From the NCBI GenBank assembly GCA_041500225.1, contig JBGQLV010000004.1, forward strand, positions 14,463 through 78,462: 64,000 nt of DNA, in the 5' to 3' direction. Of this stretch, positions 27,786-64,000 are shown piece after piece; the first letter of the stretch is position 1, and each line of letters starts with the position of its first letter. The notes below the pieces were generated by a model. The model did no database searches, was not told the origin of the DNA, and saw nothing but the letters and a program-made list of their open reading frames with translations. The translations under genes were made by a program, and so were the position numbers. Origin of the DNA: Thermodesulfovibrionia bacterium (lineage in GTDB: Bacteria > Nitrospirota > Thermodesulfovibrionia > Thermodesulfovibrionales > SM23-35).

Positions 27786-27801
27786 GAAAGGAGGGATGAC
27801 C

Positions 27802-37177: not shown

Positions 37178-37180
37178 ATC

Positions 37181-39385: not shown

Positions 39386-39426
39386 AAGAGTGTCAGTGAT
39401 CACTAATGAATTTAGGAGGTAAAAGG

Positions 39427-40590
39427 ATGGCAGAGCAAATAAGTCCTGATTTAGGCTTTGTAAAGGATGTTATTGCAGGAGGAGGTGAATCCCTGAAAAA
39501 ATGTTTCCAGTGTGCAACATGCTCTGTTGTATGCAATTTAACCCCTGATGATAAACCATTCCCAAGAAAAGAAATGTTATATGCTCAATGGGGTTTGAAG
39601 GATAAGCTCTTCCCTAATCCTGATGTCTGGCTCTGCCATCAATGCAGTGATTGTACTGCTTATTGTCCGAGAGGGGCAAAGCCAGGAGAAGTCCTCAATG
39701 CAGTAAGAAAAATGTCTATCGAGCATTATTCAGTCCCCCGGTTTTTGGGAAAACTGGTCGGTAACCCCGGCGCCCTTGTCCTCCTCCTTGCCATACCTAC
39801 TGCTATCTTTCTGGCTATCCTTGCAGGCTTAGGCCATCTGAATCTGGAAAGCATCAGGAATGAAGCAGGGAAGATCGCATACTCGGCATTATTGCCTTCG
39901 TATTTTATCGATGGTGTTTTTGTCCCGATATTCCTCTTTGCTGTTGTTTCACTGGCCATAGGTGTCTCACGGTACTGGAAAGATATGGTGCGTGCTACCG
40001 GCGTTAACCCCAAGGGCAGTATTGTAAACGCTCTTACTGAGACTATCAGTGAAATTTTGTCACATAAACGATTTGATAAATGTAATGTAACCTATGATCG
40101 AAAGTTAGCTCACGTGTTAGTATTTTTCAGTTTTATTGGACTTGCAATAACAACAGCATGGGCAGTTTTATATTTGTATGGATACGAGATAATGGAAGCG
40201 ATGGGGAAAACGCCTTACCCCTGGATGCTCGGCAAATCACCATATCCGTTGACGGATCCGGTAAAGATACTTGGGAACGTAAGCGCAGCAGCCCTGATCA
40301 TTGGTATTACATTAGTTATGATGAACAGGTCAAGAAATAAGGAAAAGGCGGGGTCAGGTGGTTATTATGACTGGCTTTTCATCAGCATAGTCAGCGCTAT
40401 TGCAGTAACAGGTATACTATCTGAGATATTGAGATTAGCAAATATAGCAATCCTGGCTTATACGATATATTTTTTCCACCTTGTTGTTGTTTTCTTCCTG
40501 TTCGCCTATGCTCCTTTTTCAAAAATGGCACACATGGTTTACAGAGCAACAGCAATGGTTTTTGCAAGGTATTCAGAGAGGGAAACTTAG
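39427..40590 (+). CDS. qmoC: Qmo subunit C (HdrC-like FeS domain fused to an HdrE-like membrane cytochrome b domain)
   Basis: The track start is 39406, but the ATG at 39427 follows GGAGG by 7 nt. CFQCATCSVVC and CHQCSDCTAYCP, followed by about 6 TM helices. Confidence 0.85.
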   Translation: MAEQISPDLGFVKDVIAGGGESLKKCFQCATCSVVCNLTPDDKPFPRKEMLYAQWGLKDKLFPNPDVWLCHQCSDCTAYCPRGAKPGEVLNAVRKMSIEHYSVPRFLGKLVGNPGALVLLLAIPTAIFLAILAGLGHLNLESIRNEAGKIAYSALLPSYFIDGVFVPIFLFAVVSLAIGVSRYWKDMVRATGVNPKGSIVNALTETISEILSHKRFDKCNVTYDRKLAHVLVFFSFIGLAITTAWAVLYLYGYEIMEAMGKTPYPWMLGKSPYPLTDPVKILGNVSAAALIIGITLVMMNRSRNKEKAGSGGYYDWLFISIVSAIAVTGILSEILRLANIAILAYTIYFFHLVVVFFLFAYAPFSKMAHMVYRATAMVFARYSERET

Positions 40591-40746: not shown

Positions 40747-42822
40747 ATGACTAATGTTATTTTATTTGCTTTAATGTGCGGAGTTCTTGGCGTTATATAT
40801 GCTGCGATGACCGCAGTGTGGGTATCAAAGCAGGACGCTGGTACTACCAAGATGCAGGAGATTTCGAATGCGGTCAAAGAGGGCGCATATGCTTTTCTTG
40901 CACGTGAATACAAAACTGTTGCAATCGTAGCTGTTGTCATGGTTATTTTGATTGCTGCTGTTGGACTCGGAATTTGGACGAGTATCGGTTTTCTTATCGG
41001 CACCGTCGGTTCCGCACTTGCCGGCTTTGTCGGCATGTGGGTTACAGTTCGGGCCAATGTACGCACCACACAGGCCGCGCACAAGGGGCTTAAGGCTGCA
41101 CTCGGCCTTGCATTCAAGGGCGGTTCGGTCACAGGCGTTATGGTTGTCGGTCTTGGAATTATAGGCCTTGCGGGTTTTTATTTTATAGCAAAGCAGGCAG
41201 CCCCTGAGATGGCATTCCATGCACTCGTGGGACTCGGCTTCGGCTGCTCACTTATGAGCGTGTTTGCCCGTATCGCAGGTGGTATCTACACAAAGGCTGC
41301 TGACGTTGGCGCAGACCTCGTTGGTAAGGTTGAGGCAGGAATACCTGAGGATGATCCGAGAAACCCCGCCGTTATCGCAGATAACGTTGGCGACAATGTC
41401 GGTGACTGTGCAGGGATGGCAGCCGACCTTTATGAGACATACACGGTTACGCTCGTTGCAGCAATGCTCCTTGCAAAGACGGTTTTCGGAGCTGACAGCG
41501 CATGGGTGGAATTCCCGATGCTCCTCGGCGGAATATCGATCATTGCTTCCATTATTGGGACATTTGCAGTAAGGCTCGGTAAAAGCCAGTATATCATGGG
41601 CGCCCTCTATAAGGGGCTTGCCGTTGCAGGCGGTCTTGCGGCAATAACATTTTATTTCGTGACAGGCGAGTTCCTGAAAGACGCATCAACACAGGCTTCA
41701 CTGATTGCTCATCCGTCATTTACACAGATGAACGTTTTTCTCATGGCAGTTATCGGCCTCGCATTGACAGGCCTGATCGTGGTTATAACTGAGTACTTCA
41801 CTGCTGGGAAGTATCCCCCGGTGAAACACATTGCAAAGGCCAGCCTGACCGGTCACGGCACAAACGTGATCGCCGGCCTCGCGGTCAGCATGAAGTCAAC
41901 CGCAGCGCCTGTTATCGTTATCGTTGCCTCAATTCTGGGCGCTTATTCATTAGGCGGCGGATTTAATGGCGATGCGGCGGGCGGTCTTTTTGCTATCGCC
42001 CTGTCAGCGGTTTCGATGCTTTCCATGACAGGTATCGTTGTTGCGATTGACTCGTATGGTCCTATTACGGACAATGCAGGCGGTATTGCAGAAATGTCAG
42101 GACTTCCTGAAGCGATCCGTAACATAACAGACCCGCTTGATGCGGTCGGCAACACAACAAAGGCTGTTACAAAGGGATATGCTATCGGTTCAGCAGGTCT
42201 CGCTGCTCTGGTTCTCTTTGCAGAGTATTCAAGGTCATTCAGCACACAGCTTTATTTTGATCTTTCGAACCCCATGGTTCTGGCTGGTCTCTTCATCGGC
42301 GGCTTGCTTCCTTACTATTACGGCTCACTCCTTATGGAGGCTGTTGGAAAGGCAGCCGGCAGCATTGTTGAGGAAGTCAGAAGACAGTTCAGGGAGATCC
42401 CCGGCATTATGGAATACAAGGCTAAGCCTGAGTACGGCAAGTGTGTTGACATTGTCACAAAAGGCGCTATCAAGCAGATGATGGTTCCAGCCCTTATCCC
42501 TGTTGTAGTACCTATAGTAGTAGGTCTTCTCCTTGGCAGGGAAGCTCTCGGAGGCGTTCTTATCGGAAGTATCCTGACTGGACTATTCCAGGCGATCGCC
42601 ATGACAAGCGGCGGCGGCGCATGGGACAACGCCAAGAAATCCTTTGAAGATGGCGTTACCGACGACAAAGGCGTCGTGCACAAGAAGGGGAGCGATGGAC
42701 ATAAAGCCTCTGTCACAGGCGACACAGTCGGCGACCCGTATAAGGATACAGCAGGCCCGGCTATCAACCCGATGATCAAGGTTATCAATATCGTTGCATT
42801 GCTGATCGTTCCACTTATTTAG
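40747..42822 (+). CDS. hppA: Membrane-integral proton-translocating pyrophosphatase, K+-independent type
   Basis: 691 aa. DNVGDNVGD, and [16 protein letters not shown] (Lys rather than Ala in GNTT[K/A]A). Confidence 0.9.
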
Positions 42823-53132: not shown

Positions 53133-54560
53133 TTAAAACCCTTTTATTGCTGCCTTGGCAAGATCAAGGAGGAATGATGGGAATACGCCTATTACAAGCA
53201 CAGCTATTGTTGTCACTATAAGTGCAAGGCCGGTTGCCGGAGATGTAGTAAGGCTGACAACTTCCTTCGGCTCTTTCATATACATGTACATGACTATCCT
53301 CAGATAGAAATATGCAGATATTGCACTGAAGATTACAGCTACGACAACAAGCCATGTATATCCAGCATTTATCGCACTCATAAATATATACAACTTACCT
53401 ATAAACCCTGCGGTAGGTGGAATACCAGTAAGTGAAAACATAAATATAAGCATAAGAGCTGCTGATAATGGATGGGTTTTAGCAAGGCCTTCATAGTCAG
53501 TTATATCCTCACCCCTGAATCCTTCACTCCTGAGCATGATTATAACTGCAAAGGCCCCGATATTCATAAATGCATATATCATCAGATAATTCATCACGCT
53601 GGCAAGCCCTTCATTGTTCGCAGCAATTATACCTAAAAGGGCGTATCCTGCATGGGCAATTGATGAGTAGGCAAGCATCCTTTTGATATTTGTCTGGGAT
53701 AATGCAACTATATTACCAACACCCATTGTGAGTATTGATACAGGAATCAGTATTGCTGCCCAGTCAACCTTGGCGGATGCAAATGCTACCATAAATACCC
53801 TTCCTAAAACTGCAAACCCTGCTGCCTTTGGACCGACTGACATAAAGGCTGTTATAGATGTTGGGGCGCCTTCATATACATCAGGTGCCCACATATGGAA
53901 TGGTGCAGCAGCAATTTTGAATCCAAATGCAACAGTAAAGAGTATAACAGACAGCAGGAGTGAGAGGTTCCCTGTAAGACCCTTTTCGCTGATATAAAGT
54001 GCGATTGCGTTAAGATTTGTTGTGCCTGTCAGGCCATAAATCATTGATGTCCCGTAAAGCAGGAATGCAGAAGAAAAGGCACCCAAGAGGAAATACTTCA
54101 GTGCCGCCTCATTTGATTTAATATCATGTCTGATAAAACCTGCAAGCACATAAGTGCTCAGGGCCATAAGTTCAAGGCCGAGATAAAGCACTATAAGGTC
54201 AGCAGCGGAGGCCATAATCATCATGCCGATAGTTGAAAACAGTATTAGAGCATAATACTCCCCGAAATTGATCTTTTCTATGACGATATACTTAATAGAT
54301 ATCAAAACAGACAGGATGACATTAACAAAAAAAATGAGTTTAAAGAATGTACTGTAACCATCAGAGATGAACATTCCTCCGAATGTAATTCCAGAGGAAC
54401 CGATCAGGGTATATGCCACAGCAACTATACCCGCAATACTAAATAGTGCAAGTACTTCCTTTTTCTTTATTAAAAGGTCTGCTAATAAAACTATCAGAGC
54501 AATGGCAGTCAAAGTAATCTCAGGTATTACAGGGCCGATGTCAGGAAGCTGGAAATTCAT
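53133..54560 (-). CDS. nuoN: NADH-quinone oxidoreductase-type complex, subunit N
   Basis: 475 aa antiporter-like polytopic protein, last gene of the nuo operon. Confidence 0.85.
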   Translation of the reverse strand: MNFQLPDIGPVIPEITLTAIALIVLLADLLIKKKEVLALFSIAGIVAVAYTLIGSSGITFGGMFISDGYSTFFKLIFFVNVILSVLISIKYIVIEKINFGEYYALILFSTIGMMIMASAADLIVLYLGLELMALSTYVLAGFIRHDIKSNEAALKYFLLGAFSSAFLLYGTSMIYGLTGTTNLNAIALYISEKGLTGNLSLLLSVILFTVAFGFKIAAAPFHMWAPDVYEGAPTSITAFMSVGPKAAGFAVLGRVFMVAFASAKVDWAAILIPVSILTMGVGNIVALSQTNIKRMLAYSSIAHAGYALLGIIAANNEGLASVMNYLMIYAFMNIGAFAVIIMLRSEGFRGEDITDYEGLAKTHPLSAALMLIFMFSLTGIPPTAGFIGKLYIFMSAINAGYTWLVVVAVIFSAISAYFYLRIVMYMYMKEPKEVVSLTTSPATGLALIVTTIAVLVIGVFPSFLLDLAKAAIKGF

Positions 54561-56098
54561 CTGACTACCTCCATAAGGGTTTTTGCTATGTTTGCCTCTT
54601 GCATACCGCCAGGCATATTGACTCTCTCTATGAGATGTTGGACCGAGGCATGCATAAAGCTGAGAAATGAGTTTGGATAAACGCCTATCCAGAACACAAG
54701 GAAAAGCAGAGGGAGGAGTGCTATTGTTTCCCTGATATCCATGTCTGGTAAACCAACAACCTTTTTATTGACTTCCATAAAGAATACCTTTTGATAAAGC
54801 CAGAGCATATAGCCAGCGCCTATGATCACTCCTGTTAATGCGAGTACTCCTGCCAATTTATTTGCAGTAAAACCACCGAGGATAATCAGGAATTCACCAA
54901 TAAATCCGTTCGTAGCTGGAAGCCCTATTGCTGATAGAGTAAATACCATGAAAAAGGCTGCATATATAGGCATGTGCGTTGCGAGACCTCCATAATCTGC
55001 AATCTGCCTCGAATGAGTCCTGTCATATACTATCCCTACAGACAAGAAGAGCGCCCCTGTCACAACACCGTGGTTAAGCATTTGTAGTATACCGCCTTCG
55101 AGTCCCTGAGTGTTAAGGGCGAAGATTCCGAGGGTTACGAAACCCATGTGACTCACAGAACTATAGGCAATAAGCCTCTTTAAGTCTGTCTGGGCAAGGC
55201 ATATGACCGCTCCATATATAATGGCAATAACTGAAAGGGTCAACATTGTAGGCGTCATTGCCGTTGCTGCATCCGGGAAAAGAGGGATAGAAAACCTCAG
55301 GAAGCCGTATGCACCCATCTTGATAAGTATGGCTGCAAGGATCACGCTGCCTGCTGTGGGGGCTTCTGTGTGTGCATCCGGAAGCCATGTGTGAACAGGA
55401 AACATTGGAACCTTTACCGCAAATGCTGAAAAGAATGCCCAGAAAAGCCATACCTGCATTGTGTAAGGATATGTCTTTGTCGTTAATTCAAGGATATCAA
55501 AGGTCTTGCCTGCATAGAGGTACAGAACGATTATCCCGACAAGCATCAGGACACTGCCAATCAGTGTGAATAAGAAGAACTTTATAGCTGCGTAAATCCT
55601 GTTCGGCCCTCCCCATACCCCTACTATGAGAAACATGGGTATAAGCATAGCCTCCCAAAAGAGGTAAAAGAGGAAAAAGTCTAAGGAACAGAAGACACCT
55701 ATCATAAACGATGTAGTTAGTAATATAGATATATAAAACTCTTTTACCTTCGTCTTTATTGCATTCCATGATATAAGAACGCAGAGGATTGCTATTAATG
55801 TAGAAAGAAGAACGAATAAGATGCTTATACCGTCAATGCCGATATAATAATTTACATTCCAGTCCGGGATCCAGCTGAATCTTTCGACAAACTGCATCTT
55901 ATAGGTTGACTTGTCAAAGTTTATAAATAGGGGTATTGATAAGAGAAATGTTGCAATGCTTGTTGTCAGGGCAAGCCATTTTGTAAGTAATTCCCATGAC
56001 CTTCTCATAAAAAGAAGCAAAAGCGCACCAAAAACAGGCAGAAATATAACTGTGCTAAGGATCGGATAACTCAATTGATTCATTATTACCTGTTCCAT
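54557..56098 (-). CDS. nuoM: Complex I-type subunit M
   Basis: 513 aa antiporter-like. WLPDAHTEAPTAGSV motif. Confidence 0.85.
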   Translation of the reverse strand: MEQVIMNQLSYPILSTVIFLPVFGALLLLFMRRSWELLTKWLALTTSIATFLLSIPLFINFDKSTYKMQFVERFSWIPDWNVNYYIGIDGISILFVLLSTLIAILCVLISWNAIKTKVKEFYISILLTTSFMIGVFCSLDFFLFYLFWEAMLIPMFLIVGVWGGPNRIYAAIKFFLFTLIGSVLMLVGIIVLYLYAGKTFDILELTTKTYPYTMQVWLFWAFFSAFAVKVPMFPVHTWLPDAHTEAPTAGSVILAAILIKMGAYGFLRFSIPLFPDAATAMTPTMLTLSVIAIIYGAVICLAQTDLKRLIAYSSVSHMGFVTLGIFALNTQGLEGGILQMLNHGVVTGALFLSVGIVYDRTHSRQIADYGGLATHMPIYAAFFMVFTLSAIGLPATNGFIGEFLIILGGFTANKLAGVLALTGVIIGAGYMLWLYQKVFFMEVNKKVVGLPDMDIRETIALLPLLFLVFWIGVYPNSFLSFMHASVQHLIERVNMPGGMQEANIAKTLMEVVR

Positions 56099-56137
56099 TT
56101 TTCTCCTCTATGAGTTGTAAACTCTATAAGTCATAAA

Positions 56138-58057
56138 CTATCGTAATAACATTGCCAATGCGATTATAAAGAATGCCCCGGCAGCCATTATGATTGCATA
56201 GTGATGTACAAGTCCTGTCTGTACCTTCCTCAAAATACCGCTGAAAATACCTATTGACCTTGGGACACCATTAACTATTCCCTCTATTATCTTTGCATCA
56301 GTAAAACCTACAAGGATGTTTTTTGCTATCCAGAGTGTAGGCCTCACAATTGTAAAACTATACAATTCGTCAACATAATATTTATTAAAGAGTATCCTGT
56401 AAATACTGCTAAAGTTCTTTGCGAGTCTAACAGGTATCTCTGTCTTCACAAGATAAAAAACTGCAGCGATTACGAGTCCGGAAAGAGCTATAGTTGTCGA
56501 AAGACCCATTATTCCCCATTCCTGTGCGTGTGTGCCATGGAACTCGGGATGCCCGACTACAGGCTTTAAAAACTCAGTAAAATGCGCACCTCCTCCCAGT
56601 AACGGGGTTATGCCTACCCACCCTACAGCCACTGCCCCTGCTGCAAGTATCATTAGAGGAATGGTCATAACATTAGGCGACTCATGAAGGTGATGCTCCT
56701 GCTTATGTGTTCCGCGGAATTTTCCGTGGAATGTAAGGAATATCATCCTGAATGAATAAAATGGAGTAAAAAATGCAACGCAAGTTACCATAATCCATAC
56801 AAATGTTCCAACATTAGTGCCGGACGCAAAGGCAGACCAGATTATCTCATCCTTGCTGAAAAACCCTGCTAAGCCGGGGACTCCGCCGGCGCTTAATGCT
56901 GCAATGAACATTGTAATGTATGTAAGCGGCATATATTTTTTTAAACCGCCCATCCCCTGGATGTCATTAGAATGAACGGCATGAATTACACTTCCAGCAC
57001 ATAAGAAGAGCAGCGCCTTGAAAAACGCATGGGTATAAAGGTGAAAAACCCCTGCAGCATATGCACCAACCCCGCACGCCACAAACATCATTCCAAGGTG
57101 GCTTAAAGTAGAGTAAGCGATTATCCTCTTGATATCATTCTGGACAACGGCTATCGTAGCAGCAAACAGGGACGTGACTGCCCCAATAATGGCTACCACA
57201 TTCATTGCTACAGGCGACAGACTAAATATGGAATTGCATCTTGCTACCATAAATACGCCTGCTGTAACCATTGTTGCAGCATGGATGAGTGCGCTGACAG
57301 GTGTTGGGCCTTCCATTGCATCAGGAAGCCAGACATGCAATGGAATCTGGGCAGATTTACCGACTGCGCCGCAGAAGAGAAGCAGGGCTATCAATGTAAT
57401 TAAGTCAACCTCGTATCCGAGGAAATTAACTGTGTGGCCAACAAAGTTTTTTATCCCGGCAAATACAGGGACATAGTGAAGCGTCCCAAAGGTGAGGAAT
57501 ATCATGAATATGCCGAGGGCAAATCCAAAGTCGCCAAATCTGTTTACTATAAATGCCTTCTTGCCTGCATCGGCTGCCGACTTCTTCTCAAACCAGAAAC
57601 CTATCAGGAAATATGAACAAAGACCAACGCCCTCCCAACCAAGATAAAGCTGGAGGAAGTTATTTGCCGTGACGAGCATGAGCATGAAGAATACGAAGAG
57701 GCTTAAGTAGGAGAAGAACCTGTAATATCCCTTATCGCCATGCATATAACCTATGGCATAGATATGTATAAGAGAGCCCACACCTGTTACAACTATAAGC
57801 ATTACAGCAGTTAATTGGTCAATAAGGAAACCGAAAGAGACCTTGAAGTTACCAGACACTATCCATGTGTATAAATCTTCATTGATTATCTTCCCATGAA
57901 TAACATCAAAGAGGGTCATTACAGATATAACAAAAGAACCTATAATTGCGAGGCAAGAAGGCCAATGTGCCTTATCTCTTAAAGCCTCTTTCCCGAGCAG
58001 GATATTAATTAGAAACGCTGCGAGTGGTAAAAATGGTATTAAAAGATAATATTTCAT
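56138..58057 (-). CDS. nuoL: Complex I-type subunit L
   Basis: 639 aa. WLPDAMEGPTPVSALIHAATMV and a C-terminal extension consistent with the lateral helix. Confidence 0.85.
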   Translation of the reverse strand: MKYYLLIPFLPLAAFLINILLGKEALRDKAHWPSCLAIIGSFVISVMTLFDVIHGKIINEDLYTWIVSGNFKVSFGFLIDQLTAVMLIVVTGVGSLIHIYAIGYMHGDKGYYRFFSYLSLFVFFMLMLVTANNFLQLYLGWEGVGLCSYFLIGFWFEKKSAADAGKKAFIVNRFGDFGFALGIFMIFLTFGTLHYVPVFAGIKNFVGHTVNFLGYEVDLITLIALLLFCGAVGKSAQIPLHVWLPDAMEGPTPVSALIHAATMVTAGVFMVARCNSIFSLSPVAMNVVAIIGAVTSLFAATIAVVQNDIKRIIAYSTLSHLGMMFVACGVGAYAAGVFHLYTHAFFKALLFLCAGSVIHAVHSNDIQGMGGLKKYMPLTYITMFIAALSAGGVPGLAGFFSKDEIIWSAFASGTNVGTFVWIMVTCVAFFTPFYSFRMIFLTFHGKFRGTHKQEHHLHESPNVMTIPLMILAAGAVAVGWVGITPLLGGGAHFTEFLKPVVGHPEFHGTHAQEWGIMGLSTTIALSGLVIAAVFYLVKTEIPVRLAKNFSSIYRILFNKYYVDELYSFTIVRPTLWIAKNILVGFTDAKIIEGIVNGVPRSIGIFSGILRKVQTGLVHHYAIIMAAGAFFIIALAMLLR

Positions 58058-58092
58058 ATTCTCAGTCCTCTAACTCCAACTTTTTAATTTCA

Positions 58093-58395
58093 TCATCCGT
58101 GCATCTCATGTATATCGTCCACGTGTGCAGTGGCCTTGTTTCTGAATAAGGCTATGACTATTGCAAGCCCTATTGCTGCCTCAGAAGCTGCGACAGCAAT
58201 TACGAAGAAGGCAAGTATCTGTCCCCTCATGTCCTGAAGGTAGTGGCTGAATGAAATTAGACTGATATTTACAGCATTAAGCATCAGCTCTATAGACATG
58301 AACATGATAATGATATTCCTTCTGGAAAGGAATCCGAAGACTCCTATCGTGAAGACCACTGCACTGAGCAATATATACCAGTTTAATGGAACCAT
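58093..58395 (-). CDS. nuoK: Complex I-type subunit K
   Basis: 100 aa with 3 TM segments. SEAAIGLAI motif. Confidence 0.85.
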
Positions 58396-58398
58396 TGT

Positions 58399-58911
58399 TT
58401 AACTTTTAACCCTCTTTTTTGCAAGGACTATTGCACCAACTATTGCCACAAGGAGTATAAGTGATGCCACCTCAAATGGAAATAAGAAATCTGTGTACAA
58501 TAATTTCCCTAAAACCTTTATATTCGATTCCTTCTTTATAAGATCCACTGTGTATTTGCCTTGCGGCCCGGCTACGAATGATCTGACCGACATAGTGATG
58601 ACTACTAAAAGACCAACTGCAAAGGTAAAACCTGTTGGCCATGCACCAATAAATTTATTTATCCTTAATTCTTCCCTGATATTCATCAGCAGCACGACAA
58701 ATAAAAACAATACGAGTATTCCACCTGCATATACGATGATCTGTATTGCAGCCATAAATTCAGCATTCAAGAACAGATATAAACTTGCAATATGGAAAAA
58801 TAGCAGAAGCATCCAGAGAACACTATGAACAGGGTTCTTCCTTGTTATTACAAGCACTGAAAGTAAAACTATAGCAAATGCAAAATATGCAAAGAATAAT
58901 TGAGAAATCAT
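58399..58911 (-). CDS. nuoJ: Complex I-type subunit J
   Basis: 170 aa hydrophobic protein in the operon position between nuoI and nuoK. Confidence 0.8.
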   Translation of the reverse strand: MISQLFFAYFAFAIVLLSVLVITRKNPVHSVLWMLLLFFHIASLYLFLNAEFMAAIQIIVYAGGILVLFLFVVLLMNIREELRINKFIGAWPTGFTFAVGLLVVITMSVRSFVAGPQGKYTVDLIKKESNIKVLGKLLYTDFLFPFEVASLILLVAIVGAIVLAKKRVKS

Positions 58912-59438
58912 TACTTTCTCCCTCTAAATACAGCCTGACCTTCAGGGGTTCCGAAATCCTCAGACATAGGTCGCCAGAATTTCTTGAAATACTCCTCGCC
59001 TTTTTTGCCAGGCATATATTTATCCCAGTTCGATAAGAGCTTGTCTTTTTTCATATATATGTTTTCTTTCTTATAATCAGAGTATTCATAATTTTCTGTT
59101 AATACAATTGCACCATAAGGACATGCTTCAACACAGAAACCGCAGTAAATGCATCTCAGGATATCTATCTCGTATTTTTCGACCTTTCCCTGCGCCCTTG
59201 AAATATGAATGCATTGTGATGGGCAAATGGTAGCACAGAGTCCGCAGCCGACACATTTTGCTTTACCTTCTGGATTTTTTGCAAGGGCATGCTGTCCCCT
59301 GAAACCCGGCGCTATGTGCCGTCTTTCCTTGGGATATTGAATAGTAACTGCGTGTGAGAACATTTTTCTCAAAGTAAGGGCCATGCCCTGGAATATTTCT
59401 ATAAAGGTGAATCTTTTTACAATTTCCCTTACAGTCAC
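58911..59438 (-). CDS. nuoI: Complex I-type subunit I (2x[4Fe-4S])
   Basis: 175 aa. CVGCGLCATICP and CIYCGFCVEACP. GTG start with AAGGGAG upstream. Confidence 0.9.
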   Translation of the reverse strand: MTVREIVKRFTFIEIFQGMALTLRKMFSHAVTIQYPKERRHIAPGFRGQHALAKNPEGKAKCVGCGLCATICPSQCIHISRAQGKVEKYEIDILRCIYCGFCVEACPYGAIVLTENYEYSDYKKENIYMKKDKLLSNWDKYMPGKKGEEYFKKFWRPMSEDFGTPEGQAVFRGRK

Positions 59439-59439
59439 G

Positions 59440-60546
59440 CTATGCTCCCTTTAAAGTAGTAATGATAATTTTTACCAAACCCGTTACCAATATATTTGCC
59501 AGTGCAATCGGAATGAGTATCTTCCATCCAATTGCCATAAGCTGGTCATACCTGTACCTTGGTACCGTTGCCCTTATCCAGTAATAGAAGAATATGAATG
59601 CATAGACTTTCATGAGGAACCATACGATACCGGGAACTAATGTTATGAACGGCACAAATTTTGTAATATACCACGGCAATGTCCACCCGCCGAGGAAACA
59701 TACTGTTGCCATTGATGCCATAATAAACATTGCTATATATTCACCAAGGAAGAAGAGTGCAAACCTGAATCCGCTGTACTCGGTAAAATATCCGGCAACA
59801 AGCTCGCTTTCTGCCTCAGGCATGTCAAACGGAGTCCTGTTCACCTCGGCTACCGCTGCGATCGTAAAGACCACAAAACCGACTATCTGAGGGATCGCGA
59901 ACATGCCAAAGATGGATTCTTCCTGTGCGCGAACGATATCTGTAAGGTTCAGTGAACCTGCCATGATCATGACACCCACAAGGCTCAGCCCCAAGGCAAT
60001 CTCGTAACTGATAACCTGAGCAGCTGACCTGAGACCTCCGATAAATGCGTATTTGGAGTTCGATGCCCATCCTGATATAAATATGCCATAGACACCGATA
60101 CCTGCCATGGCAAAGACGAATAACAGTCCTATATTGATGTTTGCAATTACAAAATTAAGAGAGAAAGGTATATTTGCAATTACAAAATCATAAGAACTAT
60201 AAGAGAAAGGTATAAATGAAAGGTTTATCATAGCCGAAGCCATAAAGATGAGAGGGGCAAGATAGAAGACGGGTTTATCCGCCTTGTCAGGTATGATATC
60301 TTCTTTAAAGAATAATTTCAGACCATCTGCGAACGGCTGTAAAAGTCCATGTGGCCCTACCCTCATGGGGCCAAGTCTCACCTGCATATGTCCGATGACT
60401 TTACGTTCAAAATATGTCGCATATGCGACATGAAGTAATCCGATGCCAAGAACGACTGCGATCTTGATTATGATAATTAATACATTAATCCCGAATTTGA
60501 TTAAAGCATCGAGTTGTTCAGGTGTTATGATATTCGAGATATTCAT
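59440..60546 (-). CDS. nuoH: Complex I-type subunit H
   Basis: 368 aa polytopic. RVGPHGLLQPFADGLKLF, and NRTPFDMPEAESELVAGY. Confidence 0.9.
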   Translation of the reverse strand: MNISNIITPEQLDALIKFGINVLIIIIKIAVVLGIGLLHVAYATYFERKVIGHMQVRLGPMRVGPHGLLQPFADGLKLFFKEDIIPDKADKPVFYLAPLIFMASAMINLSFIPFSYSSYDFVIANIPFSLNFVIANINIGLLFVFAMAGIGVYGIFISGWASNSKYAFIGGLRSAAQVISYEIALGLSLVGVMIMAGSLNLTDIVRAQEESIFGMFAIPQIVGFVVFTIAAVAEVNRTPFDMPEAESELVAGYFTEYSGFRFALFFLGEYIAMFIMASMATVCFLGGWTLPWYITKFVPFITLVPGIVWFLMKVYAFIFFYYWIRATVPRYRYDQLMAIGWKILIPIALANILVTGLVKIIITTLKGA

Positions 60547-60548
60547 AG

Positions 60549-62009
60549 CTATCTATCACACTCTCCAAGCACGATATCGATCGTACCGATGGCTGCGATA
60601 ACGTCAGCAACCAGATGCCCGACACAGAGTCTCGGTAAACAGCCGGCATGGATAAACGATGGAGCCCTTAGCCTCATCCTGTAAGGTTTTCCGGAACCGT
60701 CGCTCACAAAATAAAAACCGAGTTCACCCTTCGGAACTTCTGTCGCAACATAGAGCTCTCCCTCAGGTGCCCTTGGCCCCCTTTTAACAAAAGTGAAGTG
60801 CTCAACAAGATGTGCTGTAGCTTTTGTGATTTCTTCTGGTAAAGGAGCTGCAGCTAATTCTTTAAGTTTGTCCTCGCTGAGGCCCTTACCACCAGGTACT
60901 ATTTTTAATCCCTTGAATTTGCATACCGCTAAACAGTTAGCACATTGTAAGCAGATTGCCTGGTCTATCTTGTGTGGCTTTTTCTTTTCTCCTGTAATAG
61001 CTTTCGCAGGGCATGCCCTCATGCACATGCCACATCCTTTACAGACCTTTTCTTCAATATAATATGCATGTTGTTTTGTAGGATGTGTAACAGGAAACAT
61101 TGCATCCTTCGGTTGAAGTGTAAATTTCGGGGCATCGGCCATAACAGGTCCTGGGGGCAACTTTTCGATACACTGTCTGATGATATTATTTGACTGCCTC
61201 ATCTCCAGCATCCTGCAGCGGTATCTGTCATATGTATCGCCTTCTGTCCCGATAGGCACATCAAACTCGACCTTATCATATGCATCATAAGGGGCGTGTT
61301 TCCTAATGTCATAAGGAACTCCGGACCCCCTTAATGTTGGGCCTGTCATTCCCCAGCTTACTGCCTCCTCTGCTGAGATTACGCCAATGCCTTTTGTCCT
61401 CTTGAGCCATATCCTGTTCTGGTCGATCAGCGTCTCATATTCCAGAATCCTTGAAGGGAACTCATCCGTAAATTTCCAGAGGCTGTCGAGAAATTCCTGT
61501 GGGACATCGTTTCTTACGCCGCCTACCCTTGGATAGGTCACGGTGAGACGTGCACCGCAGATCATCTCATACAGGTCAAGAATCCATTCCCTTTCACGGA
61601 AGCAGTAGAGAAACACGGTCATTGCACCAATATCAAGGGCATGGGTTGCAAGCCAGAGCAGATGGTTCGCTATCCTCGACATCTCACCAACAATTGTTCT
61701 TATAAACTTTGCCCTTTCAGGAGCCTCTATTCCAAACAGTTTTTCGACTGCAATTACGTAGCCAATATTATTTGACATTGCTGAGACATAATCCATCCTG
61801 TCAGTCAGCGGCAGGGCCTGGAAATAACTCAAGCTTTCACCGAGTTTCTCAATACCCCTGTGAAGATAGCCTACATGAGGTGTTACCTTAACAATTGTTT
61901 CACCGTCTATATCAAGAACGAGTCTCAGAACACCGTGCGTAGCAGGGTGCTGCGGCCCCATGTTTACATTGAGCTCTCTTGTTTCAAATATCTTCTCTAA
62001 CTGTTCCAT
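60549..62009 (-). CDS. nuoD: Complex I-type subunit D with an internal 2x[4Fe-4S] ferredoxin-domain insertion
   Basis: The track start at 62027 is TTG. The ATG at 62009 lies 1 nt after the nuoC stop, with GGAAGGA upstream. [15 protein letters not shown], then the C-terminal [36 protein letters not shown]. The insert [12 protein letters not shown] .. [11 protein letters not shown] is at 60828-61067. Confidence 0.9.
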
Positions 62010-62010
62010 C

Positions 62011-62601
62011 CTATCCTTCCCACTCAAACTCTTTTAATTCTTTTGACCTATTGAGCACTTCAATAAAACCAGGCCAATCATTTTCAGGTCCGGGTCCCTT
62101 TAAAGGGTAGTCCTTTCTTAAGGGATGGCCTTCCCAGTCTTCCGGCAGAAGGATTCTCCTGAGGTCAGGGTGGCCAGTGAATACAATACCGAACATATCA
62201 AAGCATTCCCTTTCATGCCAGTTTGCACCGGCCCATACCGGAACTACCGAATTGATCTTAGGGTTTGGTTCAGGAACCTGTGCCCTGATACGAATCTTAT
62301 GACGATATTTTATGGAATAAAGGTTATAAACAACCTCGAATCTGACGTCTTTTTTACCGCTGTAATCAACAGCGGTGAGGTCCTGGAGGTGGTCTAAACT
62401 TAAAAGAGGGTCGTCATGGAGATATTTACAGATCGGAACTACCTGATCCTTCTTTACAATAACTGAAACCTGATCTCTGAACTCTGCAACATCAATTACC
62501 TGATCGGGAAATTTTTCCTTTATCTTTTCTGCTATCTCTTTTGCTTCCAGTCCCTTAGGGGGTAACGACAATCTTACTTCTATTACCGCCATGGACTCCA
62601 C
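62011..62601 (-). CDS. nuoC: Complex I-type subunit C
   Basis: 196 aa. [26 protein letters not shown]. The track start is GTG. The alternative ATG is at 62592. Confidence 0.9.
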
Positions 62602-63104
62602 CTCGCGTGTTCTTTTCTTATCTTTTCCTGAAGCATCATCATGCCCTCGAGCAATGTTTCAGGTCTCGGTGGACAACCAGGAACATAGACATCAACGGGA
62701 AGGAATGTATCACATCCCTGTACTGTACTGTACGTCCTGAACACTCCACCTGTGCATGCACAACTTCCCATTGCAACCACATACCTCGGTTCAGGAATCT
62801 GGTCGTACACCCTTCTGACAACTGGGGCCATCTTCTTTGTAACTGTACCGGCAACGATCACACAATCTGCCTGCCTTGGTGAGCCCCTGAATATAATGCC
62901 GAACCTGTCAAAGTCATAGTGGGCTGCGCCTGCGGCCATCATTTCAATTGCGCAACATGCGAGTCCGAAGGTTGTAGGCCAGATTGAGGATAACCTTCCC
63001 CAATTAACAATTTTATCCAGAGAGGTGATGATCAAATTCGGGGGTAAAATCTTAGTCCCGTCATCTAACGTAACAAGCCCAGTTGCTGATGTGTCTATTA
63101 ACAT
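62583..63104 (-). CDS. nuoB: Complex I-type subunit B (N2 cluster)
   Basis: 173 aa. [26 protein letters not shown]. Confidence 0.9.
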
Positions 63105-63135
63105 CTCTTACCTCTAACTATCTTATTAATCCTGA

Positions 63136-63507
63136 TTAATCCCACTGAAATGCCTCTTTTTTCCAGGCATAAATATAACCGATTAAAAGTATCGCAATAA
63201 ATATAACCATTTCTATAAAGGCGTAAATCCCGATTTTGTCGAATACCACAGCCCAGGGATAAATGAAAACGGCCTCAACGTCGAATACTACAAAAAGCAT
63301 GGCTATGATATAAAATCTGATAGTAAACCTGGTGCGCGGTTCGCCTGTTGGAGTGATACCTGATTCATAAGGCATAAGTTTTTCATAATATGGCTTCTTT
63401 AATCTGAAGATTGTACCGATTAATAAAGCGCCCAAGCCAAAAGCCACGGCGATTATAATGAATATAAGAACCGGTAAATATTCTGATGGAATATACGTTC
63501 CAGGCAT
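63136..63507 (-). CDS. nuoA: Complex I-type subunit A
   Basis: 123 aa with 3 TM segments. YESGI..P motif. First gene of the operon. Confidence 0.85.
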   Translation of the reverse strand: MPGTYIPSEYLPVLIFIIIAVAFGLGALLIGTIFRLKKPYYEKLMPYESGITPTGEPRTRFTIRFYIIAMLFVVFDVEAVFIYPWAVVFDKIGIYAFIEMVIFIAILLIGYIYAWKKEAFQWD

Positions 63508-63633: not shown

Positions 63634-64000
63634 ATGTTTAAAATATTAAAAAAGGAAGAACTGTCGGATTTAGTGACCTTATTCGAGATTGATGCAAAAG
63701 ATATTGCGAGGAAGGCAAAGCCAGGCAATTTTTTTGTCCTTAGAATCAATGAACAAGGAGAGAGGATACCTTTAACTATTGCTGATTTTGATAGGGGAAA
63801 GGGAATCTTAACTACAGTCTTCCAGAAGGTTGGAAAGACAACCCATCTTTTGGGGTCATTAAATGCAGGTGATTTCATATCTGATATTATCGGCCCACTT
63901 GGTAAACATTCCCCTATAGAAAAATTTGGAAAGATCGTTTGTGTAGGCGGTGGTGTTGGGATAGCGCCTATCTATCCAATAGCAAGGGCATTAAAAGAGG
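63634..64000 (+). CDS. NfnA / sulfide-dehydrogenase-like FAD/NAD(P)-binding subunit (partial, 3' end beyond window)
   Basis: Not in the track because it is open at the window end. My translation is MFKILKKEELSDLVTLFEIDAKDIARKAKPGNFFVLRINEQGERIPLTIADFD..IVCVGGGVGIAPIYPIARALKE, typical of the PyrK/NfnA family. Confidence 0.7.
   Translation, partial: MFKILKKEELSDLVTLFEIDAKDIARKAKPGNFFVLRINEQGERIPLTIADFDRGKGILTTVFQKVGKTTHLLGSLNAGDFISDIIGPLGKHSPIEKFGKIVCVGGGVGIAPIYPIARALKE

What the first reader, a model, noticed from the sequence alone, without database searches (positions are those of the whole stretch)
60828..61067. NuoD carries an in-frame 2x[4Fe-4S] ferredoxin domain insertion
The NuoD ORF is 486-492 aa, whereas the NuoD/Nqo4/49-kDa proteins I know are roughly 380-420 aa. 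The conserved NuoD blocks are intact on both sides: [15 protein letters not shown] near the N-terminus, and [55 protein letters not shown] at the C-terminus. About 80 extra residues sit between PVTHPTKQH and [11 protein letters not shown]. They read [60 protein letters not shown]... and contain two complete CxxCxxCxxxC(P) motifs spaced as in bacterial 2[4Fe-4S] ferredoxins. The insertion is in frame with no stop, and the operon lacks the NADH-input genes. An extra pair of clusters grafted onto the Q-module subunit could be an alternative electron entry or relay site, for example for ferredoxin or another low-potential donor. I do not know of a described complex I with this architecture.
Basis: partly seen in the sequence, partly recalled or inferred. 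Interest (0 to 1): 0.8.

Follow-up and report, generated by a model that had tools for sequence, protein, structure and literature searches.

The report
Ferredoxin domain inserted in complex I NuoD
A group of uncultured sulfate-reducing Nitrospirota carries a respiratory complex I that lacks its NADH-oxidising module and has instead a two-cluster iron-sulfur (ferredoxin-like) domain spliced into the normally cofactor-free subunit NuoD, probably as a built-in port for low-potential electrons.

Summary
nuoD (60549-62027, minus strand) encodes a 486-492 aa protein. Its NuoD core is intact, but about 90 extra residues (aa 311-401) are spliced into a surface loop. They carry two CxxCxxCxxxC motifs, and no solved complex I has this segment.

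It is not an assembly artefact. The same insert occurs in at least 69 protein clusters and 23 species-level genomes, all Nitrospirota/Thermodesulfovibrionales. All eight cysteines are invariant and dN/dS is about 0.09.

In an exhaustive scan of 1.84 billion representatives, only one 50%-identity cluster spans the insert. Relatives 84-93% identical lack it.

Three new results:
- The insert is 55% identical to the C-terminal ferredoxin-like domain of NuoF/HydB-type (BfuB) flavoproteins encoded beside nuo operons in the same order. In Bfu enzymes that domain is where ferredoxin is reduced.
- Every insert-bearing operon has a shortened, more basic NuoI hairpin (20/20 versus 0/46).
- The NuoD helix after the insert is altered. 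In cyanobacterial NDH-1, that hairpin and that NuoD segment form the ferredoxin pocket next to cluster N6a.

Best reading: a hard-wired ferredoxin-facing relay on an 11-subunit complex I. This is inferred, not shown. I found no published description. It is a new variant of a known kind.

The parts
60549..62027 (-). nuoD, complex I subunit D, carrying an internal ferredoxin-like domain. It is 492 aa from the TTG start; the probable true start is the ATG at 62009, giving 486 aa.
   Evidence: ORF. TIGR01962 scores 556 bits and PF00346 scores 383 bits in two stretches. The quinone-site residues H31, Y80 and D132 (Nqo4 H38, Y87, D139) are present by the offset and are invariant in the alignment. 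The AF2 core has pLDDT above 90 and TMt up to 0.92 to solved NDUFS2/Nad7 chains.
60825..61097 (-). The whole insertion, aa 311-401. It consists of a short N-linker, the 2x[4Fe-4S] ferredoxin-like core, and an acidic C-linker containing a helix.
   Evidence: The segment is absent from insert-less relatives that are 84-93% identical and from all PDB NuoD chains. dN/dS is about 0.09, compared with 0.03-0.05 in the core.
60903..61067 (-). Ferredoxin-like core, aa 321-375, homologous to the C-terminal B3/B4 domain of BfuB/HydB/NuoF-like flavoproteins.
   Evidence: Fer4 Pfam hits exceed their cutoffs. PDB HoxF/HydB/NfnB C-terminal domains match at E = 4e-14 to 3e-10. The core is 55% identical (46 of 84 residues, E = 8e-24) to the C-terminus of the 620-aa NuoF-like protein of L060. 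Net charge of the core plus the conserved GGKG that follows it (aa 321-382) is +7 to +9 in 23 sequences.
61008..61043 (-). First cluster motif, C329-x2-C332-x2-C335-x3-C339-P340.
   Evidence: Read directly from the sequence. Invariant in 23 of 23 insert-bearing genomes.
60921..60953 (-). Second cluster motif, C359-x2-C362-x2-C365-x3-C369. It is followed by KFK rather than Pro, as in the related BfuB domains.
60771..60821 (-). NuoD helix and loop immediately after the insert (aa 403-419). Together with residue 310, these are the only core positions that differ systematically between insert-bearing and insert-less proteins: 403, 404, 409, 412, 415 and 419. R419 aligns with NdhH K321, a ferredoxin contact in NDH-1L.
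   Evidence: Discriminating columns. Mapping of NdhH 321-394 to residues 419-492. NdhH K315 and K321 contact ferredoxin (PMC7021789, PMC6992706).
58911..59438 (-). nuoI, the subunit carrying clusters N6a and N6b, 175 aa, with a Lys-rich C-terminal extension.
59154..59219 (-). NuoI hairpin between the two cluster motifs (aa 74-95). It is 22 aa here. Compared with insert-less relatives it carries a 5-6 aa deletion plus the changes T81R and E85K/Q/R.
   Evidence: The loop is 22 aa in 20 of 20 insert-bearing operons and 26-28 aa in 46 of 46 insert-less relatives. It corresponds to the NdhI hairpin with K86, K89 and K91 that binds ferredoxin.
53133..63507 (-). The 11-gene operon nuoA-B-C-D-H-I-J-K-L-M-N, with no nuoE, nuoF or nuoG. 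Coordinates: nuoA 63136-63507, nuoB 62583-63104, nuoC 62011-62601, nuoH 59440-60546, nuoJ 58399-58911, nuoK 58093-58395, nuoL 56138-58057, nuoM 54557-56098, nuoN 53133-54560.
   Evidence: ORFs. The same gene order appears in L001 and L002. tblastn finds no NuoE/F/G-like sequence anywhere in the 64-kb window.
63634..64000 (+). 5' part of an nfnA-like gene (the FAD/NAD-binding small subunit of the ferredoxin-dependent NfnAB transhydrogenase type). It is divergent from nuoA and runs off the end of the window.
   Evidence: Translation. NCBIfam PRK06222 at E = 1.7e-47. NfnA and NfnB sit in this position in 13 other insert-bearing loci.

Best explanation
This is an 11-subunit complex I (nuoABCDHIJKLMN, no NuoEFG) from a sulfate-reducing member of the Thermodesulfovibrionales. 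Its NuoD has captured a two-[4Fe-4S] ferredoxin-like domain. The domain derives from the C-terminal B3/B4 domain of a NuoF/HydB-type (BfuB) flavoprotein. In Bfu enzymes that domain hands low-potential electrons to ferredoxin.

[quoted passage not shown] That is the place where soluble ferredoxin docks on cyanobacterial NDH-1 and where NuoG sits in canonical complex I. There it would act as a hard-wired relay and docking module: acidic ferredoxin (or a ferredoxin-reducing partner) to the two insert clusters, then N6a, N6b, N2 and menaquinone, with proton pumping by the unchanged membrane arm. The menaquinol would then serve QmoABC-AprBA, which are encoded in the same window. The same wire could run in reverse, driven by the proton-motive force, to make reduced ferredoxin.

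What is shown:
- the insertion itself and its boundaries;
- conservation of the cysteine ligands and purifying selection on the insert;
- its restriction to one narrow clade;
- its homology to BfuB C-terminal domains;
- the strictly linked remodelling of the NuoI hairpin and the following NuoD helix.

What is inferred:
- that clusters are actually bound;
- the position of the domain relative to N6a;
- the donor;
- the direction of electron flow.
For: 1. The architecture is real and recurrent.
2. All eight cysteines are invariant in 23 genomes. dN/dS is 0.08-0.13 in the insert, compared with 0.03-0.05 in the core.
3. The closest solved relatives of the insert are the C-terminal 2[4Fe-4S] domains of HoxF, HydB and NfnB. 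The closest sequences found are the C-termini of NuoF-like proteins encoded next to nuo operons in the same order. They are 54-62% identical and share the unusual signature GEKKxPHKIxQ..C..C..C...CKFK.
4. In Bfu enzymes that domain carries clusters B3 and B4, and ferredoxin is reduced there (PMC12018979).
5. In two cryo-EM structures of the ferredoxin-NDH-1L complex, the ferredoxin pocket beside N6a is formed by the NdhI hairpin (K86, K89, K91) and a C-terminal fragment of NdhH (K315, K321). Those two segments map to NuoI aa 79-85 and NuoD aa 413-419.
6. Those two segments are the ones that change with the insert. The NuoI hairpin is 22 aa in 20 of 20 insert-bearing operons and 26-28 aa in 46 of 46 others, and it also carries T81R and E85K. 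NuoD differs at 310, 403, 404, 409, 412, 415 and 419. NuoA, NuoB, NuoC and NuoH have no discriminating column.
7. The link between insert and hairpin holds even though insert-bearing and insert-less operons are interleaved in trees of the other subunits.
8. The ferredoxin-like core is strongly basic, +7 to +9. That suits binding of an acidic ferredoxin.
9. The context is ferredoxin-linked. There is no nuoEFG. nfnAB lies divergent from nuoA in 14 insert-bearing loci, counting this window. aprBA and qmoABC are in the window.
10. Cultured Thermodesulfovibrio have NuoEFG-less Nuo complexes for which ferredoxin has been proposed as donor (PMC5165239).
Against: - No distance between the insert clusters and N6a could be obtained. 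Model coordinates are not exposed, only single chains can be modelled, and the insert has low confidence in the better model.
- The insertion point is about 18 residues, roughly one 19-residue helix, upstream of the residue that aligns with the NdhH ferredoxin contact. Proximity to N6a therefore rests on co-variation, not on geometry.
- Sister lineages 84-93% identical have the same 11-gene operon without the insert. The insert is therefore not required for the basic function of this complex.
- The nfnAB neighbourhood is also found beside two insert-less operons (L029, L030), so it is not specific to the insert.
- Both the remodelled NuoI hairpin and the insert are basic. Their contact, if there is one, is not a simple charge match.
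- Three insert-bearing genomes (L001, L010, L017) encode NuoE-like, NuoF-like and NuoG-like proteins divergently next to the operon. Some of these complexes may therefore still take NAD(P)H-derived electrons.
Confidence: 0.5

Rival explanations
1. The domain is a docking and wiring adaptor for one specific soluble partner enzyme, not for free ferredoxin. Candidates are the divergently encoded NfnAB, or a Bfu-type NuoE/NuoF/NuoG-like module as in L001, L010 and L017. The tethered domain would play the part of that enzyme's ferredoxin substrate. This would rebuild an NAD(P)H-linked input module on an 11-subunit core.
For: nfnA and nfnB lie divergent from nuoA in the window and in 13 other insert-bearing loci. 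L001, L010 and L017 carry genes for NuoE-like, NuoF-like (in L001 and L017 a 1061-aa NuoF-GltD fusion) and NuoG/Fdh-like proteins in that position. The insert derives from a domain that normally belongs to such modules.
Against: At least five insert-bearing loci with 3-8.5 kb of upstream sequence have neither gene set (L007, L009, L019, L026, L027). The insert-less operons L029 and L030 also have nfnAB nearby. A domain with net charge +8 is an unlikely mimic of the acidic ferredoxins that NfnAB and Bfu enzymes reduce.
Confidence: 0.2
2. The clusters are off-pathway, like N7 of NuoG. [quoted passage not shown] Alternatively it could act as a redox sensor or an electron reservoir. Electrons would enter N6a directly from ferredoxin, as in the insert-less sister complexes.
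For: Insert-less sister operons evidently work without it. dN/dS in the insert is two to three times that of the core. No geometry is available.
Against: All eight cysteine ligands and several non-ligand signature residues are invariant. The co-ordinated changes affect exactly the elements that form the ferredoxin/N6a pocket. The donor domain is an electron-transfer module in every known context.
Confidence: 0.15
3. It is an artefact: a misassembly or frameshift has fused a small ferredoxin gene into nuoD, or the contig is chimeric.
For: One related MAG (L027) has a frameshift in the linker. One insert-less contig (L029) changes its affinity exactly at the insertion site.
Against: The same in-frame architecture, with conserved boundaries, occurs in 69 or more protein clusters from JGI, ENA, NCBI and Logan assemblies and in 23 species-level genomes. 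These include contigs of 3.58 Mb and 891 kb. Purifying selection acts across the insert. There is no stop codon, start codon or repeat at the junctions.
Confidence: 0.01

Closest known systems
Canonical NuoD / Nqo4 / NDUFS2 (49-kDa subunit) of respiratory complex I
   Same: It matches the family over its full length above the curated cutoffs. The quinone-site His, Tyr and Asp are conserved. It lacks the NiFe cysteine motifs. It has the same operon position. The predicted core fold has TMt up to 0.92 to solved chains.
   Different: Canonical NuoD carries no cofactor. Here about 90 residues with two 4Fe-4S motifs replace the short loop that corresponds to Nqo4 316-322. No solved NuoD has this, and among the other representatives ranked in the top 150 of the 1.84-billion-protein scan none spans the insert.
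C-terminal ferredoxin-like domain (clusters B3/B4) of BfuB-type subunits: HydB of HydABC, NfnB of NfnABC, HoxF
   Same: It is homologous in sequence: E = 4e-14 to PDB HoxF, and 55% identity to a Thermodesulfovibrionales NuoF-like protein. It has two Cx2Cx2Cx3C motifs with the same spacing. In Bfu enzymes this domain is the ferredoxin-facing low-potential end.
   Different: The domain is not at the C-terminus of a flavoprotein. It is inserted inside a complex I Q-module subunit. It has no adjacent FMN or NADH site and no BfuC partner.
Ferredoxin-dependent 11-subunit complex I relatives: cyanobacterial/chloroplast NDH-1 and the NuoEFG-less Nuo complexes of anaerobes
   Same: It has the same 11 core genes and no N-module. 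The NuoI hairpin and the C-terminal NuoD segment that form the ferredoxin pocket in NDH-1L are the elements remodelled here.
   Different: NDH-1 recruits soluble ferredoxin with extra small subunits (NdhS, NdhV, NdhO) and adds no clusters. Here two extra clusters are covalently built into NuoD. No NdhS/V/O-like genes are evident in the operon.
Campylobacter/Helicobacter-type complex I, with NuoE and NuoF replaced by other proteins (from my own knowledge, not tested here)
   Same: It is another case in which the electron-input end of complex I has been exchanged for a non-NADH donor.
   Different: In that case separate genes replace nuoE and nuoF, and nuoG is kept. Here the input element is a domain inside nuoD, and the operon has no nuoE, nuoF or nuoG.

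Membership tests
NuoD/Nqo4/49-kDa subunit of complex I (PF00346, TIGR01962) | Scores above the curated family cutoffs over the whole NuoD length | tested here: met
   TIGR01962 scores 556.2 bits against a cutoff of 459.35. PF00346 scores 382.6 bits against a cutoff of 24, in two stretches either side of the insert.
NuoD/Nqo4/49-kDa subunit of complex I (PF00346, TIGR01962) | Quinone-site residues (Nqo4 H38, Y87, D139) present, and the NiFe-binding cysteine pairs of group-4 hydrogenase large subunits absent | tested here: met
   By the offset, Nqo4 residues 38, 87 and 139 correspond to H31, Y80 and D132. All three are present and invariant. The N-terminal motif reads HRGIEKL, with no Cys-x2-Cys. 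The C-terminus is GECDR, with a single cysteine.
NuoD/Nqo4/49-kDa subunit of complex I (PF00346, TIGR01962) | Encoded between nuoC and the following nuo genes in a nuo operon | tested here: met
   The gene order nuoA-B-C-D-H-I-J-K-L-M-N is contiguous on the minus strand. The same order is seen in relatives.
NuoD/Nqo4/49-kDa subunit of complex I (PF00346, TIGR01962) | NuoD fold | tested here: met
   The AF2 model built from the diverse MSA has core pLDDT above 90. Foldseek gives TMt of 0.81-0.92 to solved NDUFS2, NUCM and Nad7 chains.
Bacterial-type 2x[4Fe-4S] ferredoxin domain (Fer4 clan) | Two CxxCxxCxxxC(P) motifs with ferredoxin-like spacing, and HMM scores above cutoff | tested here: met
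   The cysteines are C329, C332, C335, C339(P) and C359, C362, C365, C369, with 19 residues between the motifs. Scores against cutoffs: PF00037 30.8 vs 21.1; PF12837 31.2 vs 25; PF12838 30.8 vs 27; PF13237 28.5 vs 25.5.
Bacterial-type 2x[4Fe-4S] ferredoxin domain (Fer4 clan) | Ligand cysteines conserved in orthologues | tested here: met
   All eight cysteines are invariant in 23 of 23 insert-bearing genomes and in 10 of 10 metagenome proteins.
Bacterial-type 2x[4Fe-4S] ferredoxin domain (Fer4 clan) | Actually binds two cubane clusters | not testable with these tools
   This needs EPR, UV-vis or iron analysis of the expressed domain or complex.
BfuB (HydB/NfnB/HoxF) C-terminal B3/B4 ferredoxin-like domain | Sequence homology to that domain | tested here: met
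   PDB HoxF 8oh5_B residues 515-579 match at E = 4.2e-14; HydB 7p5h_B residues 566-626 match at E = 4.5e-13. BLASTP against L060 NuoF-like residues 542-620 gives 55% identity at E = 8e-24.
BfuB (HydB/NfnB/HoxF) C-terminal B3/B4 ferredoxin-like domain | Located at the C-terminus of an FMN/NADH-binding NuoF-like subunit | tested here: not met
   The host protein is NuoD. It has no Complex1_51K or NADH_4Fe-4S domain. The segment is therefore a relative of the domain, not a BfuB subunit.
BfuB (HydB/NfnB/HoxF) C-terminal B3/B4 ferredoxin-like domain | Exchanges electrons with ferredoxin | not testable with these tools
   This is known for Tsi NfnABC (PMC12018979). Here it is only inferred.
Ferredoxin-dependent 11-subunit complex I-like enzymes (NDH-1 / NuoEFG-less Nuo) | Eleven core genes with no nuoE, nuoF or nuoG in the operon | tested here: met
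   Whether nuoEFG exist elsewhere in the genome cannot be seen from a 64-kb window.
Ferredoxin-dependent 11-subunit complex I-like enzymes (NDH-1 / NuoEFG-less Nuo) | Ferredoxin pocket formed by the NuoI/NdhI hairpin and a C-terminal NuoD/NdhH segment next to N6a | tested here: inconclusive
   The homologous segments exist and are specifically remodelled in insert-bearing operons. Neither ferredoxin binding nor the position of the insert could be computed.
Ferredoxin-dependent 11-subunit complex I-like enzymes (NDH-1 / NuoEFG-less Nuo) | Ferredoxin:quinone oxidoreductase activity | not testable with these tools
   This needs an enzyme assay on membranes or purified complex.

The most novel reading that the evidence does not exclude
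The inserted B3/B4-type domain would be a functional replacement for the whole N-module. It would be a covalently tethered, possibly mobile, two-cluster arm on NuoD that collects low-potential electrons from ferredoxin or directly from soluble ferredoxin-reducing enzymes and injects them into N6a. This would define a previously unrecognised class of ferredoxin:menaquinone-coupled complex I, created by capture of a domain from a neighbouring bifurcating-enzyme gene. The two co-adapted forms, insert with short NuoI hairpin and no insert with long hairpin, would be maintained side by side and exchanged by recombination among related lineages.
Probability: 0.35. Interest if true: 0.8.

Novelty: new variant of a known kind. 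Interest (0 to 1): 0.68.

Why it matters
How complex I enzymes that lack the NADH-oxidising NuoEFG module obtain their electrons is a long-standing open question. A survey of 11-subunit enzymes found no dedicated electron-delivery partner for them (PMC3144371). Such enzymes are widespread in anaerobes, including sulfate reducers.

Here nature has marked the input site. A ferredoxin-interacting cluster domain has been welded onto the normally cofactor-free subunit D. At the same time the two surface elements that bind ferredoxin in photosynthetic NDH-1 were reshaped.

This gives a concrete, testable model for electron entry. It also provides a natural pair of near-identical enzymes, with and without the module, for comparison. 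It is a clear example of respiratory-chain innovation by domain capture from a neighbouring gene.

It also adds two redox centres to the known cofactor inventory of complex I-type enzymes. That matters for annotation: these proteins are currently named plain NuoD. It also matters for energy-budget models of subsurface sulfate reducers.

Tried and rejected
- **Artefact or chimera.** Rejected because the architecture recurs in many independent assemblies and is under purifying selection. There are no repeats at the junctions.
- **Wider distribution.** The exhaustive scan of 1.84 billion representatives, using aa 250-492 as query, found only one cluster that spans the insert. Odd-length NuoD representatives turned out to be NuoCD or NuoD-NuoE fusions or N-terminal extensions, not Fer4 inserts.
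- **Word-index search with the insert alone.** It returned one fragment and was uninformative, so that search was wasted.
- **Single gain and clean monophyly.** A first NJ tree suggested this. Bootstrapped trees of the NuoD core, NuoA+B+C and NuoH do not support it: 13%, 0% and 0%. I therefore do not claim a single clean origin.
- **nfnAB linkage as a specific partner.** Weakened, because two insert-less operons share it and several insert-bearing ones lack it.
- **Structure-based distances.** The first AF2 model, from a shallow MSA, had a poor core (pLDDT 62) but a confident insert. The second, from a diverse MSA, had a good core (pLDDT 80.8) but a low-confidence insert. Coordinates are not exposed and multimers are not possible, so no cluster distances were obtained.
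- **Literature.** Three full-text searches found no description of a ferredoxin domain in NuoD. The E. coli complex I paper gave no information on the loop concerned.
- **Intein or mobile element.** Not supported. The segment is a plain Fer4 domain with no splicing motifs and no flanking repeats.
Full report
**1. The observation**

The minus-strand ORF at 60549..62027 encodes 492 aa from a TTG start. An ATG at 62009, one base after the nuoC stop, gives 486 aa, which is the length of many homologues. The finding's coordinates 60828-61067 are exactly residues 321-400.

The Pfam NuoD model PF00346 matches in two pieces, separated by Fer4-family hits at aa 322-371. NCBIfam TIGR01962 (NuoD) scores 556 bits against a cutoff of 459.

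Every solved NuoD, NDUFS2, Nqo4 and NdhH chain aligns to aa 12-310 and to about aa 397/406-492. None covers the stretch between. Relative to T. thermophilus Nqo4, residues 316-322 are replaced. Relative to the closest insert-less homologues, the tripeptide YIL between PPKD and KDMEHLIHQF is replaced by about 91 residues.

The eight cysteines are C329, C332, C335, C339(P) and C359, C362, C365, C369.

The operon reads nuoA-B-C-D-H-I-J-K-L-M-N, and nuoH starts two bases after the nuoD stop. No NuoE-, NuoF- or NuoG-like sequence occurs anywhere in the 64-kb window.

**2. It is not an artefact, and it is narrowly distributed**

A search of 5.8 billion protein clusters returned at least 69 full-length clusters, 82-92% identical and 486-505 aa long, with the same PF00346 plus Fer4 architecture. 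They come from JGI, ENA, NCBI and Logan assemblies. The named ones are Nitrospirota/Thermodesulfovibrionales MAGs, and one lies on a 3.58-Mb contig.

The GTDB species-representative genomes contain 23 loci with the insert, L005 to L027. The nearest is MAG DeMMO4_11, at 95-96% identity.

Proteins 84-93% identical over the NuoD core but only 396-398 aa long lack the insert.

An exhaustive HMMER scan of 1.84 billion 50%-identity representatives, using aa 250-492 as query, found a single representative that spans the insert (454 bits, one stretch). The next hit scores 162 bits and matches the flanks only. Other NuoD representatives of unusual length are fusions or extensions without Fer4.

Across 23 genomes all eight cysteines are invariant. 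So are GEKKxPH, CKFK and (in all but two genomes) PGGKG. Nei-Gojobori dN/dS is 0.08 for the ferredoxin core and 0.13 for the linker, compared with 0.03-0.05 for the NuoD core. dS is about 1.6 and therefore saturated, so these ratios are rough.

AlphaFold2 with a diverse alignment gives a confident NuoD core (pLDDT above 90, pTM 0.77). That core superposes on solved NDUFS2/Nad7 chains with TMt up to 0.92, and TMq is about 0.74 because roughly 100 residues are extra. A model built from the shallow, insert-rich alignment gave the insert a pLDDT of about 80, with beta-alpha elements typical of a ferredoxin fold.

**3. Where the domain came from**

Among solved structures, the insert matches the C-terminal two-cluster domains of HoxF, HydB and NfnB (E = 4e-14 to 3e-10). 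These are the NuoF-like subunits of the bifurcating Bfu-type enzymes.

tblastn of the insert against the fetched loci found segments 54-62% identical at the C-terminal end of NuoF-like genes. These genes lie beside nuo operons of insert-less relatives in the same order, in most of them divergently upstream of nuoA. They share the unusual signature GEKKxPHKIxQ..C..C..C...CKFKSIKIxP.

The L060 example is a 620-aa protein with five elements: a thioredoxin-like [2Fe-2S] domain, an FMN domain, SLBB, NADH_4Fe-4S, and C-terminal Fer4 at aa 543-592. BLASTP against the window's NuoD gives 46 identities in 84 residues, E = 8e-24.

In Bfu enzymes this domain carries clusters B3 and B4 and is where ferredoxin is reduced (PMC12018979).

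The insert is therefore best described as a captured BfuB C-terminal domain. I could not run a second exhaustive search to prove that no closer relative exists elsewhere.

**4. Where the domain probably sits**

Two independent cryo-EM structures of ferredoxin bound to cyanobacterial NDH-1L show the same pocket. It is formed by the NdhI hairpin (K86, K89, K91) and a C-terminal fragment of NdhH (K315, K321). It places the ferredoxin cluster 9.6 A from N6a.

NdhH 321-394 aligns with NuoD 419-492, so K321 corresponds to R419, about 18 residues after the end of the insert. NdhI 21-134 aligns with NuoI 15-127. This puts the three NdhI lysines at NuoI aa 79-85, in the hairpin between the two cluster motifs.

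I compared insert-bearing operons with their nearest insert-less relatives column by column:
- NuoA, NuoB, NuoC and NuoH have no discriminating column.
- NuoD has only 310, 403, 404, 409, 412 (V/I to T/E/D), 415 (T to K/R) and 419 (A/T/V to K/R). Apart from residue 310, which abuts the insert on its N-terminal side, these lie on the helix and loop that follow the insert.
- NuoI has A53, K54, position 60, T81R and E85K/Q/R, plus a five-to-six-residue deletion in the hairpin.

The hairpin is 22 aa in 20 of 20 insert-bearing operons and 26-28 aa in 46 of 46 insert-less relatives, near and far. The short form is therefore derived.

DNA identity between insert-bearing and insert-less operons dips from about 80% to 62-68% precisely over the 5' half of nuoI.

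So the two surface elements that make the ferredoxin/N6a pocket in NDH-1 are exactly the elements that changed together with the insertion. [quoted passage not shown] It is an inference from co-variation, not a measured distance.

**5. Evolutionary pattern**

The near clade, insert-bearing operons plus L002 and L028 to L031, has 99-100% bootstrap support. Monophyly of the insert-bearing operons has only 13% support from the NuoD core, 0% from NuoA+B+C and 0% from NuoH. L011 (insert) pairs with L029 (no insert) at 80-96%.

L011 and L029 are 93-98% identical at the DNA level in the 300 nt just 5' of the insertion site, but only 65-79% identical 3' of it. L029 continues with nuoE, so it is a 14-gene type. 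That is either a recombination breakpoint at the insertion site or a chimeric contig.

The insert/hairpin combination stays perfectly linked even though the rest of the operon does not sort by insert state. This argues for functional coupling of the two features. The physical closeness of nuoD and nuoI, about 1.1 kb apart, also helps keep them together.

More distant relatives, 68-77% identical, include both canonical 14-gene operons with nuoEFG between nuoD and nuoH and other 11-gene operons.

**6. Physiological context**

The window also encodes AprBA (27342-29718), QmoABC (35924-40590) and an H+-pyrophosphatase (40747-42822). This is the machinery of dissimilatory sulfate reduction that draws on the menaquinol pool.

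Divergent from nuoA, the window ends in an nfnA-like gene starting at 63634. NfnA plus NfnB occupy that position in 13 other insert-bearing loci. However, they also lie near two insert-less operons and are absent from several insert-bearing loci.

Three insert-bearing loci instead carry genes for NuoE-like, NuoF-like (in two of them a 1061-aa NuoF-GltD fusion) and NuoG/Fdh-like proteins, followed by NfnAB.

Cultured Thermodesulfovibrio have two NuoEFG-less Nuo complexes, one of them next to pyruvate:ferredoxin oxidoreductase, and ferredoxin has been proposed as their donor (PMC5165239).

The ferredoxin-like core of the insert is strongly basic, +7 to +9. Its C-linker is acidic, -2 to -5.

**7. 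Mechanism**

I commit to the following, at about 50% confidence. The domain is a hard-wired, ferredoxin-facing relay and docking module at the apex of an 11-subunit complex I. Electrons pass from acidic ferredoxin (or a ferredoxin-reducing partner), through the two insert clusters, to N6a, N6b, N2 and menaquinone. The reverse direction is possible.

The rivals are a specific docking adaptor for NfnAB or a Bfu module (0.2), off-pathway structural or reservoir clusters (0.15), and an artefact (0.01).

The chief weaknesses are three. There is no geometry. The insert-less sister enzymes show that the module is not indispensable. The gene-neighbourhood signal is not specific to the insert.

**8. 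Comparison with what is known, and novelty**

The protein is a bona fide NuoD; every family test was met. The inserted segment is a bona fide Fer4 two-cluster domain related to BfuB B3/B4, but it is not a BfuB subunit, because the host-protein test is not met.

The enzyme belongs with the NuoEFG-less, presumably ferredoxin-dependent complex I relatives. It differs from NDH-1, which adds small subunits and no clusters, and from canonical complex I, in which NuoD has no cofactor.

Three full-text literature searches found no description of a cluster-bearing NuoD. Public records call these proteins simply NuoD.

I rate it a new variant of a known kind, with interest 0.68. It is a real, conserved and previously undescribed cofactor addition to a core complex I subunit. 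It bears directly on the unresolved question of electron input into 11-subunit complex I. It is limited by its narrow, uncultured distribution and by the absence of structural or biochemical proof.

Noticed in passing
window 27342-29718 (+), 35924-40590 (+), 40747-42822 (+): aprB and aprA (adenylyl-sulfate reductase), qmoA, qmoB and qmoC, and a membrane H+-pyrophosphatase are encoded in the same window. The organism therefore has the dissimilatory sulfate-reduction (or reverse) pathway, which is linked to menaquinol.
   Followed up: partly
window 63634-64000 (+); L025 6108-8389 (-): An nfnA-like gene lies divergent from nuoA and is cut by the end of the window. nfnA plus nfnB occupy this position in 13 other insert-bearing loci, but also lie near the insert-less operons L029 and L030.
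   Followed up: partly
L029 7776-12193 compared with L011 3261 onward: L029 (no insert, nuoD followed by nuoE) and L011 (insert, 11-gene operon) are 93-98% identical in DNA just 5' of the insertion site and only 65-79% identical 3' of it. This is either a recombination breakpoint at the insertion site or a chimeric MAG contig.
   Followed up: partly
L027 about 11160-11180: In one MAG (MFD00709.bin.1.4), nuoD has a single +1 frameshift inside the acidic linker after the ferredoxin core. This is probably a sequencing indel. If real, it would split NuoD into two polypeptides.
   Followed up: partly
L001 1-8278 (-), also L010 and L017: Three insert-bearing loci have a gene set divergent from nuoA. 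In L001 and L017 it comprises a NuoE-like protein (173 aa), a 1061-aa NuoF-GltD fusion, an 860-aa NuoG/formate-dehydrogenase-like protein, and NfnA/NfnB-like genes. In L010 the NuoF-like protein instead keeps its own C-terminal ferredoxin-like domain. This could be an unusual soluble or attachable NAD(P)H module.
   Followed up: no
L060 1839-8153 (-): The Bfu-like cluster that carries the closest relative of the insert also encodes a 313-aa fusion of a response-regulator receiver domain with a NuoE-like sequence, two more receiver-domain proteins and a histidine kinase.
   Followed up: no
window 58911-59040 (-), NuoI aa 134-175: NuoI has a Lys-rich C-terminal extension of about 40 residues (KKENIYMKKDKLL...KKGEEYFKKFWRP...). 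It is present in both insert-bearing and insert-less members of the near clade. Its role is unknown.
   Followed up: no
L002 323-6052 (+): In the insert-less sister operon L002/L003, the genes upstream of nuoA are rnfCDGEAB (with a 397-aa polyferredoxin-type RnfB) and a GAF-GGDEF protein. This is a different ferredoxin-linked neighbour.
   Followed up: no
P0203 (representative library): A 504-aa protein from the representative library appears to fuse NuoD with the N-terminal part of NuoE (PF00346 followed by 2Fe-2S_thioredx). It is unrelated to the insert studied here.
   Followed up: no
window 62009-62027 (-): The listed TTG start of nuoD overlaps the end of nuoC by 17 nt. The ATG at 62009 lies one base after the nuoC stop and matches the 486-aa length shared by many homologues. 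It is the more likely start.
   Followed up: partly
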